Shown: positions 36,001 to 39,000 of the stretch, piece after piece
Position numbering within the stretch: the first letter of the stretch is position 1
How the letters are laid out: the number at the start of each line of letters is the position of its first letter
UHGV virus genome: UHGV-0180032
Length of the DNA stretch: 64,000 nucleotides
DNA from: a virus
Strand: one strand, 5' to 3'
Program-made: the position numbers

Positions 36001-39000
36001 AAAATCTCTCTTATCCCTACTTTTCTACTCGACGTATCAAAACCTTCCGAAAAACACTAACCGTTCTTGATTTTTAACTACAGAATAGTTTCCTACCGCC
36101 CGATTCTATGGGCGGTAGGTGTTTTATTTTTTTTGATCTTGGAGGGTTAAGTGGCCACATCTTACGTACCTGATTTGAGTCTGACCTCAGCAGAGCTAGT
36201 GGTCGCTTTAATCAATCATGATAACGGGTTACAGCTTACACTAAACGAAATCCGTATTAGCGGAACTGTAACAAACCCATCCCCAACAACTTCGCGACGT
36301 AACACTATCACCGAAATCAGTAAAATCAGAAAACCGGATGGTGCGACTGTTGTGGTTTACTACGACAGACTCGATGCCGATGAGGTATTAACGTCCGAAC
36401 CTATTTTGATTTCGTTAGACGGTACCGAAGCGAACATTCGTGATGTTCTTAGTGTTGTAAATGAATACTGCGGTACGAACTTACAACCTGAGGACTTACG
36501 TGCCTCAGATATTACTTCAGGTAATGATCCTATTGCTATTAACGTTGCTGACGATTCTCCTGCCTGGATGAATGCGTTTATGGTGACGTTGTTTGATAAA
36601 ACCGAACGTGCGTTAGCGAACGAAGAAGATGAAATCTTCTGCATCGGTGACGATAGCGTTCTTACATTCGAGGTTACAGATGGCGACAGCACTGAAGAAG
36701 ACGAGACTCCATGAGCTTGAAAGCTACGCAGGCACACCCCAAGGCGGGGTACTGCTGTATAGCAAAGACAATAAAGAATATAAAATTGACGTTGATAAGT
36801 TAGCCCCGGTTGCGACAGTCACCACGGTTAACGGTTCGAATAATGCCGCCACGATGGATTTCAATACCAGCACTGACATTATTCTGGTGTTAAACGATCC
36901 TAACACTACAGTGACGTTCGCAGCCCTTACCAACGTTGCGGAAAATACCCGTTTCGAAGTAATGCTAACGATTAAGCAAGGAACAGGGGCGAATAAAGTA
37001 ACTTGGCCTGAAAACGTTAAGTGGCCTCACGGTGCACAACCGGTTTTATCCTACGCGGCAAATGCGGAAGACACTCTGTCGCTTTATACCCTTGATGGGG
37101 GTGCCACCTGGAAAGGTTCTCTTCTTGCAGCGGGTTACTAAATGAGAAAACATTTTCAGCGTCACGCGATTAGCTACGCGTTATCGTTAGCTTACGGACA
37201 CCAATCCTTCGTTACCCGGAATACGGGAACGACTCACGACGCGCACAACGAACACTATATTCAAAACGAAGAAGGTGTTCTGTAGAATAACCGTCATTTC
37301 ATTGCTGACACTATGGCGGAATACCAACCGAACGGGGATGCGACGACCGAGGGTCAGTCGTTACACGTTATCGGTTACTGCCACATGTATATCGCAACGA
37401 AAGACGAAAGATGGTTAGATGCGGCGAAACACGCCTGGGATGCGTACAATACGTACTTCTACGCCGGGCAGCCTATTCCAACCACACCCCAGCGTCGTAT
37501 TTGTAACTGGTTGGTAAACGGGAAAGAACCGGTATTAGCACATTACCCAATAAACCCTACGGAACCTACCCAAGGTGGGTATAAAAGCGTCCCTGTAAGG
37601 TTTACAAACGGACAGTGTAAAATACCGCATGGTGCACCGTTCTGGGGAGAGTATTTGGATACCTTTACGTTTGCGCATCGTGGTCACCCTGCCTGGGAAG
37701 CCATTAACGCAGACGTACAGATTATCAAGGAAGACAAAGAAGGGTCAATTAATTGGGAAGATGTTTTAACTCACGTTATTACCAATCCTGATAAACCCTA
37801 CGAGGCCATAGCCTGGGTCGATTGGCCTACGTTGTTAAACAACGCTACAGGGTACACCCCGCTTTGGGGTGGTAGCGCAACAAAAGGCCCTAAATACGAC
37901 GCTGACTGGATAATTGCCTGGACAGGTAACAAAATCCAGGATAGTGAGATTATTGAGACAGGATTAGCAGACGCTGATAAAGGTACCGTACAGTTAAAAG
38001 ACACGCAGTTAAACGGTGTCTATTTGATTAACTACGCGGTAAAACTGCCTGTCGAACACGGGGGTTACGAGTTTAAACGTAACGAACCGTGGCACAACCG
38101 TCCGGTCCACACACCGTTCTTAGGGACGAAAAACCAATACGGCAACGCTGCTGATGCTGAACTGTGGTTTATTGACGCCTGTTATTTGCTGTGGCGAATC
38201 ACGGGTGAAGAGAAATACAAACAAGCATTAGACTGTACTTTCTACACAGCACACGAGTACACGTATATTGATGCAGTAGATAAATTCTTCCGTCGTTCTA
38301 CCGCTGCGGAAACACCGTTTACGGATGGTATTTCGTACGACTTCAATTACCCAGACACCGTAAGTGCTACCTACGGCCGTGATGAGAATGGGGATATTAC
38401 CATCCATGTGCCTGAAGCGGCACAACACTTTATGGAGCAGAAAGCGGTTCGATTCAGGATTAACAAAGACTCCAAACTACGTGTCACGTACGGCGGGGTT
38501 TGTAAGAACGGTGATCCTGTCTACTGCAAAGCAATGGTAAACATTAACCCTGCGAAAGGTGATACCGAGGAAGTAAACTGGTACGGTTTAACCTTACCTC
38601 GGTCTACGGTAAATGCCGTTAAGCAGTACGATGTTGACTTAGGCCAACTTGCTCGTATTACCACCCCAGAAGGGGAAGATTACCTGATAGCTGATGACCG
38701 CGCGTGTTCGGACTATGGTGGTTGTACGTGGGAAGAACGTTTTGAGGACAGCATTTACGACGGTCGCGCGGGTACCGTTATAGAAGCTGAATTTCCTGAT
38801 GACAGTGCCGGGTTTATTATCGGGTTCTGGTTAACCGCTGAAGAGAAGGTAAAACCGGTTTCTATTGTCTACCGTGCGGACGCGGATTTTAACCTGCGTT
38901 TAGCTGACAGTGATAACTGGCGTTGGTGGTGGATGTTACCCAACACAAACAACGAATGGCGTCAGGTAACGTTAAATCCGGATGATGCTACACTTTCCGG

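What the first reader, a model, noticed from the sequence alone, without database searches (positions are those of the whole stretch)
36680..37141. Short and long fibre proteins share a conserved N-terminal anchor
The first about 40 residues of the 153-aa protein at 36680 and of the 1541-aa fibre at 40225 align closely (MA-A-KK-RLH-L--Y-G----GVLL-SKD-K-YK--V). This indicates two alternative or co-mounted receptor-binding proteins docking to the same baseplate partner, a modular host-range architecture.
Basis: seen in the sequence. Interest (0 to 1): 0.45.

Follow-up and report, generated by a model that had tools for sequence, protein, structure and literature searches.

The report
Shared N-terminal anchor on jumbo-phage tail proteins
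Two tail proteins of an SPN3US-like jumbo phage start with the same ~41-residue module, which relatives put on up to five different fibre or enzyme proteins, so it is most likely a common plug for mounting several host-recognition proteins on one tail; this is a familiar design principle seen here in an uncharacterised form.

Summary
The 153-aa protein (36680-37141) and the 1541-aa fibre (40225-44850) share their first ~41 residues (BLASTP 25/50 identical, E=2e-11), and the window holds no other intact copy.

The module ("N-box") is rare. In an exhaustive search of 1.84 billion proteins, every hit I inspected carried it at residue 1. The hits belong to SPN3US-like jumbo phages and have unrelated bodies: long fibres, an acetylesterase, short fibre tips. 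Relatives carry up to five such genes in one locus. The copies are old paralogues under strong purifying selection, not a DNA-level repeat.

The "modular anchor" reading is therefore supported, but one correction is needed. The 153-aa protein is probably not a receptor-binding short fibre. Its C-terminal beta-sandwich co-occurs with the next gene, a ~1000-aa protein with a glycosidase-type (alpha/alpha)6 fold, in ~520 phage genomes of very different tail types. Each lineage gives it a different N-terminus. It looks like an adaptor for that enzyme.

The docking partner is unknown, and "same partner" is untested. Class-specific N-box signatures hint at separate sockets. In this window the enzyme gene carries a premature amber codon.

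Verdict: a new member of a known kind, of moderate interest.

The parts
36680..37141 (+). 153-aa protein, orthologue of SPN3US gp123 and phi92 gp140 (PHROG 9017). N-box plus a C-terminal beta-sandwich; proposed adaptor for the next gene's product.
   Evidence: AF2: residues 45-153 mostly pLDDT 74-90, residues 1-44 below 50.
36680..36802 (+). N-box, class A copy (codons 1-41): MATALKKTRLHELESYAGTPQGGVLLYSKDNKEYKIDVDKL
36812..37138 (+). C-terminal beta-sandwich domain (residues 45-153, motif QGTGANKVTWP...VKWP...PVLSY). It co-occurs with the large tail protein family.
   Evidence: co-occurrence vs 69
37142..40147 (+). Large tail protein gene (SPN3US gp124 / phi92 gp141 family; 1001 aa in relatives). 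(alpha/alpha)6 glycoside-hydrolase-like fold with inserted beta domains. Here it is interrupted by an in-frame TAG at 37283-37285 (codon 48; TCG in the closest relatives). The longest open ORF is 37313-40147 (944 aa).
40225..44850 (+). 1541-aa long tail fibre: N-box, coiled-coil-like shaft, T-even/Mu-like fibre segments, and a C-terminal Peptidase_S74 intramolecular chaperone (residues 1447-1503, 44563-44733).
40225..40347 (+). N-box, class B copy (codons 1-41): MAKAVKKIRLHNLRPYTGDIGEGVLLFSKDEKDYKLPVREI
44898..45689 (+). gp38-type tail fibre adhesin (Gp38_N + GP38), accessory of the long fibre
45706..46218 (+). Second Gp38_N-domain protein (170 aa), accessory of the long fibre
36151..36714 (+). 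DUF7941 protein (187 aa; SPN3US gp122, candidate member of paralogue family B). Lies directly upstream of the short gene and overlaps its start by 35 nt. Role in this locus unknown.
46372..46884 (+). Second DUF7941 protein (170 aa). In relatives it is followed directly by further N-box genes.
46887..46975 (+). Deletion scar of a third N-box gene (class D, 206 aa in relatives). It reads GTG-GCT, then a 22-nt deletion, then HELPSLSEDIT, then diverges.
36092..36119 (+). Strong terminator-like hairpin marking the upstream edge of the receptor-binding gene block
46981..47009 (.). Strong bidirectional terminator-like hairpin marking the downstream edge of the block

Best explanation
The first ~41 residues of both proteins are paralogous copies of one portable N-terminal module (N-box). 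Invariant positions across all classes are M1, K7, R9, H11, L13, L26, S28 and Y34. The module belongs to a clade of SPN3US-like (Seoulvirus-related) enterobacterial jumbo phages. It most likely works as the virion-attachment peptide: an element that is disordered on its own, becomes ordered on a tail or baseplate component, and so mounts whatever is fused behind it.

In this window it mounts two things. (a) A 153-aa adaptor, whose C-terminal beta-sandwich holds the product of the next gene, a ~1000-aa tail protein with a glycosidase-type (alpha/alpha)6 fold. (b) A mosaic 1541-aa T-even-like long fibre with its own C-terminal chaperone domain and two gp38-type adhesin genes. Both would sit on the same tail, giving a multivalent adsorption apparatus. 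Relatives extend it to as many as five N-box proteins by cassette gain and loss.

Shown: the similarity and its significance; the position at residue 1; the narrow distribution; the diversity of cargo; the common junction at residue ~40-48; purifying selection; and the near-perfect co-occurrence and adjacency of the adaptor domain with the large protein.

Inferred: that the N-box docks to the baseplate, what it docks to, that the two proteins are co-mounted, and that the adaptor domain binds the large protein.
For: - Significance: pairwise E=2e-11.
- Distribution: an exhaustive profile search of 1.84 billion representative proteins gave only 22 hits. All 12 retrieved for inspection, and about 16 by coordinates, carry the box at residues 1-4x of proteins of 55-1494 aa.
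- Cargo: the bodies are unrelated. They include 153-158-aa adaptors, 1385-1555-aa fibres, a 273-aa fibre tip (PHROG 2636 C-terminus), 205-206-aa proteins (PHROG 33169 C-terminus), a 706-aa SASA acetylesterase with DUF6645, and 709-710-aa Ig/beta-propeller-like proteins.
- Copy number: up to five N-box genes occur in one locus (L006), and three in L003, L004, L017 and L018.
- Junction: homology of the cargo to other phage families always begins at residue ~40-59.
- Independence from the short protein: in L013 and L015 the short+large cassette is absent from the fetched locus, yet the class B N-box is kept at 40/41 identity in L013. L015 retains a 34-aa scar of the short gene.
- Selection: N-box dN 0.03-0.07 against dS 0.4-1.2. 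Third codon positions between the two window copies are 13/41 identical.
- Structure: AF2 leaves residues 1-44 unstructured (pLDDT <50) in front of a reasonably confident domain, as expected for a partner-dependent peptide.
- Adaptor case, co-occurrence: tblastn finds the short protein in 523 phage records and the large protein in 526, with nearly the same genus breakdown.
- Adaptor case, adjacency: the two genes are neighbours in the same order in Seoulvirus, T7-like Aghbyvirus and Youngvirus, and phi92-like phages. The large proteins are 42% identical, while the short proteins' N-termini differ by lineage. In Yersinia phage ISAO8 the N-terminus is the T7 gp17 tail-attachment domain PF03906.
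- Adaptor case, fusion: in a P2-like element the large protein is fused directly to baseplate protein gpI and no short gene precedes it.
- Virion presence: SPN3US gp123 and gp124 are virion proteins not assigned to the head (PMC5694885).
Against: - There is no structural or biochemical evidence for docking, and no partner was identified.
- The N-box has no confident predicted fold and no relative in the PDB.
- N-box classes share only ~19 of 41 residues, so 'one shared socket' is not established.
- In this window the large protein gene has a premature amber codon that would remove its conserved N-terminal helix. The adaptor may therefore be without cargo in this particular phage.
- Co-occurrence was compared by counts and genus breakdown, not record by record.
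- Absence of the short+large cassette in L013 and L015 was checked only within the fetched loci, not across their whole genomes.
Confidence: 0.65

Rival explanations
1. Branch peptide rather than baseplate anchor. The N-box would be the 'conserved peptide' that docks receptor-binding proteins onto a gp10-like branching domain of another fibre protein, possibly the 153-aa protein's own C-terminal domain. The long fibre would then hang from the short protein instead of from the baseplate.
For: Known multi-fibre phages work this way (K1-5 gp37, G7C gp66/gp63.1, Klebsiella anchor-branch systems; PMC6872550). The short protein's C-domain shows moderate fold similarity to the CBA120 TSP4 N-terminal assembly domains and to KP1 baseplate chains.
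Against: The short protein itself carries an N-box. L013 and L015 lack the short gene in the fetched locus but keep long fibres and other N-box proteins with almost unchanged N-boxes. The short C-domain tracks the large tail protein across ~520 genomes, most of which have no N-box proteins at all.
Confidence: 0.15
2. Assembly tag. The N-box would be recognised transiently by an assembly factor or chaperone, for instance the small DUF7941 proteins encoded just upstream of several N-box genes, or it would act as a trimerisation initiator. It would not be a permanent structural anchor.
For: A DUF7941 gene directly precedes an N-box gene in several slots, and overlaps it by 35 nt in the window. 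SPN3US gp122, the DUF7941 orthologue, was not found in wild-type virions (PMC5694885), which would suit a non-structural helper.
Against: Known fibre chaperones and trimerisation modules act at C-termini, and this fibre already has an S74 domain and gp38-type genes. N-box genes also occur without a preceding DUF7941 gene: the window's long fibre, and the 273-aa class. DUF7941 is the SPN3US head paralogue family B. Lineage-specific N-termini on the same adaptor domain, notably T7 gp17-N in podophages, point to tail attachment.
Confidence: 0.12
3. No function of its own. The similarity would be chance, a recent gene conversion or duplication remnant, or a nucleotide-level element such as a shared regulatory or recombination sequence.
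For: The similar stretch is short (~41 aa). Deletion scars end inside N-box coding sequence in two genomes.
Against: E=2e-11 pairwise. The profile is specific in 1.84 billion proteins. Third codon positions are essentially random between the copies (13/41), with dN far below dS. Class-specific signatures are conserved across phages.
Confidence: 0.03

Closest known systems
SPN3US gp123 + gp124 (Seoulvirus)
   Same: Direct orthologues. gp123 is 46% identical over the full length, including the N-box. gp124 is 71% identical. The gene order DUF7941 - short - large is the same. Both were detected in virions.
   Different: SPN3US, and Erwinia phage pEa_SNUABM_29 in the locus examined, have only this one N-box gene. 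They lack the long fibre and gp38 module that follows in the window. No function has been published for gp123 or gp124 beyond 'tail-associated'.
phi92 gp140 + gp141, and the same pair in rV5-like, Rosemountvirus, Goslar-like and G17-like phages
   Same: The same two-gene cassette. The short protein's C-domain is 38% identical and the large protein 42% identical, and the genes are adjacent in the same order.
   Different: The first ~48 residues of the phi92-type short protein are unrelated to the N-box. The 2026 phi92 cryo-EM paper lists gp140 only as an uncharacterised putative fibre protein, leaves fibre II unassigned, and never mentions gp141 (PMC13450770).
Anchor-branch receptor-binding systems (K1-5/SP6 gp37 adaptor; G7C gp66 + gp63.1; CBA120 TSP2/TSP4; Klebsiella KP32/KP34-type 'truncated first RBP')
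   Same: A conserved N-terminal anchor or 'conserved peptide' sits on otherwise unrelated receptor-binding proteins. A short anchor-only protein carries a larger enzyme encoded next to it. Several receptor-binding proteins are co-mounted (PMC6872550).
   Different: There is no sequence relation to those anchors. A T4 gp10-like domain is not demonstrated here, only moderate fold similarity. The host is a phiKZ-related jumbo myophage. Five paralogous copies of the anchor itself is unusual.
T7 gp17 N-terminal tail-attachment domain (PF03906), as in Yersinia phage ISAO8 gp38
   Same: It occupies the same position, N-terminal to the same adaptor domain and upstream of the same large protein, as the N-box does in the window.
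   Different: It is a different, larger (~125 aa) domain. The window protein has no PF03906 match.
T-even long tail fibre distal part with gp38 adhesin, Mu S fibre, and S74 intramolecular chaperone
   Same: The body of the 1541-aa fibre matches these families, and gp38-type genes follow it.
   Different: Its first ~50 residues are not covered by any general fibre family. They are instead the lineage-specific N-box.

Membership tests
PHROG 9017 (SPN3US gp123 / phi92 gp140 short tail protein) | Full-length profile match | tested here: met
   E=2.4e-38, residues 1-153 on profile positions 9-158 of 159
PHROG 9017 (SPN3US gp123 / phi92 gp140 short tail protein) | Encoded immediately upstream of a gp124/gp141-type ~1000-aa tail protein | tested here: met
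   The stop at 37141 is followed by the ATG at 37142 of the large gene. The same adjacency holds in SPN3US, ISAO8, Vibrio phage G1 and Bas62.
PHROG 9017 (SPN3US gp123 / phi92 gp140 short tail protein) | Present in the virion | not testable with these tools
   Only the SPN3US orthologue has mass-spectrometry support (PMC5694885 Suppl. Table 1).
N-box proteins (family defined here) | Profile match starting at residue 1, with M1, K7, R9, H11, L13, L26, S28 and Y34 conserved | tested here: met
   Both window proteins: E 2e-22 and 2.4e-22 against the five-class profile. Invariant columns.
T4 gp10-like (XD) branching domain | Fold or profile similarity to T4 gp10 domains 2/3 | tested here: inconclusive
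T7 gp17 N-terminal tail-attachment domain (PF03906) | Pfam match at the N-terminus | tested here: not met
   No Pfam family for the 153-aa protein. The ISAO8 homologue does match (E=1e-8, residues 29-131).
Receptor-binding short tail fibre (T4 gp12 / Mu S type) | Similarity to a known short-fibre shaft or receptor-binding tip | tested here: not met
   PHROG, Pfam, NCBIfam and PDB searches of the 153-aa protein give only the gp123/gp140-type domain. At 153 aa it has no room for a shaft.
T-even-type long tail fibre with intramolecular chaperone and gp38 adhesin | C-terminal Peptidase_S74 domain, fibre repeats, and a downstream gp38 gene | tested here: met
   PF13884 at residues 1447-1503 (E=4.4e-15). 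PHROG fibre families match along residues 52-1539. PDB 5yvq Mu fibre S, E=1.9e-39. PF05268 and PF21721 in the next two genes.
(alpha/alpha)6-barrel glycoside hydrolases (large tail protein) | (alpha/alpha)6 fold | tested here: met
(alpha/alpha)6-barrel glycoside hydrolases (large tail protein) | Catalytic residues and enzymatic activity | not tested
   Only a sub-threshold Pfam GH76 hit (17.3 bits against a cut-off of 25.9).

The most novel reading that the evidence does not exclude
The N-box paralogue classes form an address code. Each class (A-E) would plug its cargo into its own socket on the baseplate of a widespread, still uncultured clade of ~222-228-kb enterobacterial jumbo phages. Up to five different fibres or enzymes would then be co-mounted and swapped independently. 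In parallel, the gp123/gp140-type short protein would be a universal adaptor that has carried one conserved glycosidase-fold tail protein into at least seven unrelated tail architectures. It could also account for the unassigned 'fibre II' of phi92, as a gp140-gp141 complex.
Probability: 0.25. Interest if true: 0.6.

Novelty: new member of a known kind. Interest (0 to 1): 0.42.

Why it matters
Host recognition in phiKZ-related and SPN3US-like jumbo phages is poorly mapped. No paper in the searched library assigns a function to gp123 or gp124 or describes their attachment. A defined ~41-residue attachment module, with a fixed junction to its cargo, would be a practical handle for retargeting these phages by cassette exchange. 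It would also help annotate receptor-binding genes in the many 222-228-kb relatives that appear in Salmonella, E. coli, Shigella and Enterobacter assemblies.

The adaptor reading of the short protein gives a testable role to a gene pair present in more than 500 sequenced phages. That set includes the therapeutically used rV5-like and phi92-like groups, where the assignment of genes to fibres is explicitly unresolved (PMC8594841, PMC13450770).

Tried and rejected
- **Word-indexed search with the N-box profile.** It returned only three short fragments. The exhaustive HMMER search was needed. Its multi-stretch internal hits in long proteins (P0016, P0023, P0030, P0032-P0034) were not examined; they look like repeat or low-complexity matches.
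- **PDB sequence and profile searches of the short protein.** Nothing meaningful was found.
- **DUF7941 proteins as the docking partner.** Considered because of adjacency. Not adopted, because the family is the SPN3US head paralogue family B and gp122 was not found in wild-type virions. It is kept as a minor rival, in the assembly-factor form.
- **TAG recoding as the explanation for the in-frame stop in the large gene.** Rejected. TAG ends 5 of 73 ORFs in the window, and relatives have TCG or GCG at that codon.
- **A nucleotide-level repeat or recent conversion.** Rejected by codon-position analysis.
- **A 643-aa ORF in L022 flagged DUF7941, as a possible DUF7941::N-box fusion.** Its visible N-terminal sequence carries no N-box.
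- **Structure prediction of complexes.** Short protein with large protein, or N-box with baseplate candidates, was not possible with the single-chain tool.
- **Megablast of the locus against cultured phages.** It found only a 72.6% match to Erwinia phage pEa_SNUABM_29.
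Full report
**What the window is.** The region belongs to a phiKZ-related jumbo phage of the SPN3US (Seoulvirus) type. Gene order and protein similarity match SPN3US genes 120-124. At DNA level, however, no cultured phage is close: the best match is 72.6% identity over 47% of the query, to Erwinia phage pEa_SNUABM_29. Close relatives occur as 222-228-kb contigs or circular "plasmids" in assemblies of E. coli, Enterobacter ludwigii, Salmonella and Shigella, and in metagenomes.

**The observation.**
- The 153-aa ORF (36680-37141; GAGG ribosome-binding site; start confirmed by all homologues) and the 1541-aa ORF (40225-44850) are present.
- BLASTP aligns residues 1-50 with 1-48 at 50% identity, E=2e-11, and nothing else aligns.
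- Profile searches of all six frames of the window find only these two copies. There is also a degraded third one described below.
- In DNA the two segments are 65/123 identical, with third codon positions at 13/41. This is an old duplication maintained at protein level, not a nucleotide repeat or a recent conversion.
- Against relatives, the N-box shows dN 0.03-0.07 and dS 0.4-1.2. The short gene as a whole has dN/dS ~0.15.
- The SPN3US orthologue gp123 (16.5 kDa) and its neighbour gp124 (113.7 kDa) were found in purified virions and are not among the head proteins (PMC5694885, Supplementary Table 1).
- The finding's two refutation criteria (similarity not significant; ORF not expressed) are therefore not met.

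**How the N-box is distributed.**
- A profile of the box was searched against 1.84 billion representative proteins and gave only 22 hits. All 12 retrieved for inspection, and about 16 by coordinates, carry the box at residues 1-4x.
- The bodies behind it are unrelated:
  - adaptor-type proteins of 153-158 aa;
  - long fibres of 1385-1555 aa;
  - a 273-aa protein matching the C-terminal part of a tail-fibre family, followed by a DUF4376 protein;
  - 205-206-aa proteins;
  - a 706-aa SASA-type acetylesterase;
  - 709-710-aa proteins with Ig-like and propeller-like matches;
  - two small proteins of unknown type.
- In every class, similarity of the cargo to other phage families starts at residue ~40-59. 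The junction is therefore fixed.
- Scanning the fetched loci shows up to five N-box genes in one locus (L006), and three in L003, L004, L017 and L018. Two are present in the window and in a complete 221.9-kb relative genome. One is present in SPN3US and in Erwinia phage pEa_SNUABM_29.
- N-boxes group by slot, not by phage: 31/41 identical within a class against 19/41 between classes. M1, K7, R9, H11, L13, L26, S28 and Y34 are invariant.
- In L013 and L015 the short gene and its neighbour are absent from the fetched locus, yet both keep a long fibre. The class B N-box is 40/41 identical to the window's in L013. L015 still has a 34-aa remnant of the short gene.
- The window itself has a scar of a class D gene at 46887-46975.
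- The long fibres are mosaic. The first 100 residues are 80-99% identical among relatives, while internal and tip segments fall to 10-50%.
- Together this is the standard signature of a lineage-specific N-terminal attachment module in a receptor-binding gene block that evolves by cassette gain, loss and exchange. The block (36151-46980) is bracketed by two strong terminator-like hairpins.

**What the 153-aa protein is.**
- AF2 gives a beta-sandwich for residues 45-153 (mostly pLDDT 74-90) and no confident structure for residues 1-44.
- The domain (motif QGTGANKVTWP...) has 523 tblastn hits among phage records. The next gene's product has 526, with virtually the same genus breakdown: Escherichia 240/242, Salmonella 99/101, Vibrio 61/62, Erwinia 33/33, Campylobacter 23/23.
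- In every lineage inspected the two genes are adjacent in the same order: SPN3US gp123-gp124, Yersinia phage ISAO8 gp38-gp39, Vibrio phage G1, and phi92-like Bas62 0024-0025 (= phi92 gp140-gp141).
- The large proteins are 42% identical across these groups.
- The short proteins share only the C-domain. Their N-termini are lineage-specific: the N-box here, the T7 gp17 tail-attachment domain PF03906 in ISAO8, and another ~48 residues in phi92-like phages.
- In a P2-like element the large protein is fused directly to baseplate protein gpI, and no short gene precedes it.
- The short C-domain resembles, moderately, attachment or spike domains: CBA120 TSP4 N-terminus, KP1 baseplate chains, Solidus tailspike and Pa223 spike.
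- The most economical reading is that the short protein is an adaptor. A lineage-specific N-terminal plug is joined to a domain that holds the glycosidase-fold tail protein. I found nothing that marks it as a receptor-binding fibre in its own right.
- The literature has no function for it. The 2026 phi92 cryo-EM paper lists gp140 as an uncharacterised putative fibre protein and leaves fibre II unassigned (PMC13450770). The BASEL paper states that gene-to-fibre assignment in these phages is unclear (PMC8594841).

**The long fibre.** Behind the N-box come a coiled-coil-like shaft, segments matching T-even and Mu fibre families, and a C-terminal Peptidase_S74 intramolecular chaperone. Two gp38-type genes follow. 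SPN3US lacks this module. It appears to be a T-even-like fibre cassette grafted onto the clade's anchor.

**Mechanism and its limits.**
- I conclude with ~0.65 confidence that the N-box is the virion-attachment peptide, and that the window's phage mounts both an adaptor (for the glycosidase-fold protein) and a long fibre through it.
- Not shown: the docking partner, whether the classes use the same or different sockets, and the adaptor-cargo contact.
- The class-specific conservation of N-boxes argues for distinct sockets rather than competition for one.
- The branch-peptide rival (N-box docks on another fibre's branching domain, as in K1-5, G7C and CBA120; PMC6872550) is weakened by two facts. 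The short protein carries the box itself, and phages that lack it in the fetched locus retain N-box fibres.
- The assembly-tag rival rests only on adjacency of DUF7941 genes.

**A complication in this window.** The large gene (37142-40147) has an in-frame TAG at codon 48. This is a TCG>TAG change. It is also present in one metagenome assembly, L021, while all other close relatives are intact. TAG is an ordinary stop codon here. If translation restarts at Met58, the conserved N-terminal helix is lost. In this phage the adaptor may therefore lack its cargo, which fits the dispensability of the cassette seen in L013 and L015.

**Novelty.** Shared N-terminal anchors on multiple receptor-binding proteins are well known. 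This is a previously undescribed anchor family in a poorly studied phage group, together with a plausible role for a widespread, uncharacterised gene pair. I rate it a new member of a known kind, of moderate interest.

Noticed in passing
window 37283-37285 (within gene 37142-40147): In-frame amber codon at codon 48 of the large tail protein gene. It is TCG (Ser) in the closest relatives and GCG in others. The same TAG is present in metagenome contig L021. It would remove the conserved N-terminal helix if translation restarts at Met58 (37313). TAG is a normal stop in 5 of 73 window ORFs.
   Followed up: yes
window 46887-46975: Deletion scar of a third N-box gene (class D). The gene is intact at 206 aa in L003, L017 and L018. 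It is degraded further in the E. coli 'plasmid' relative.
   Followed up: yes
whole window; relatives NZ_CP173450.1 and NZ_CP134650.1: This jumbo-phage clade has no close cultured representative in the phage collection. It does appear as 222-kb circular 'plasmids' and ~225-kb contigs in isolate assemblies of E. coli, Enterobacter ludwigii, many Salmonella enterica, and Shigella. This suggests carriage (carrier state or pseudolysogeny) across several enterobacterial genera.
   Followed up: partly
L015 4920-5021: 34-aa remnant of the short gene's N-box left by deletion of the short+large cassette. L013 lacks the cassette in the fetched locus without a detectable remnant.
   Followed up: partly
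L031 6001-9294 (P0170): In a P2-like element the large tail protein family is fused to the C-terminus of baseplate protein gpI (PF09684). Other homologues carry different N- or C-terminal extensions (PF23148 Gp77; ~1300-1480-aa forms).
   Followed up: partly
window 36151-36714 and 46372-46884: Two short DUF7941 paralogues (SPN3US head paralogue family B type) flank the receptor-binding block. In relatives a DUF7941 gene often sits directly upstream of an N-box gene. The meaning of this association is unknown.
   Followed up: partly
window 40167-40195: G9/C6 stem-loop (GGGGGGGGGTAAGCTACTCCCCCC) in the 77-nt spacer between the large tail gene and the long fibre gene. The long fibre has only a weak Shine-Dalgarno sequence.
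   Followed up: no
window 36092-36119 and 46981-47009: Strong terminator-like hairpins (11 and 13 bp stems) bracket the block DUF7941 - short - large - long fibre - gp38 x2 - DUF7941, which suggests one transcription unit.
   Followed up: no
L003 13549-15438 and 15773-17863: In the Enterobacter ludwigii record CP134655.1 the long fibre is split into 629-aa and 696-aa ORFs, whereas other relatives have one 1385-1555-aa ORF.
   Followed up: no
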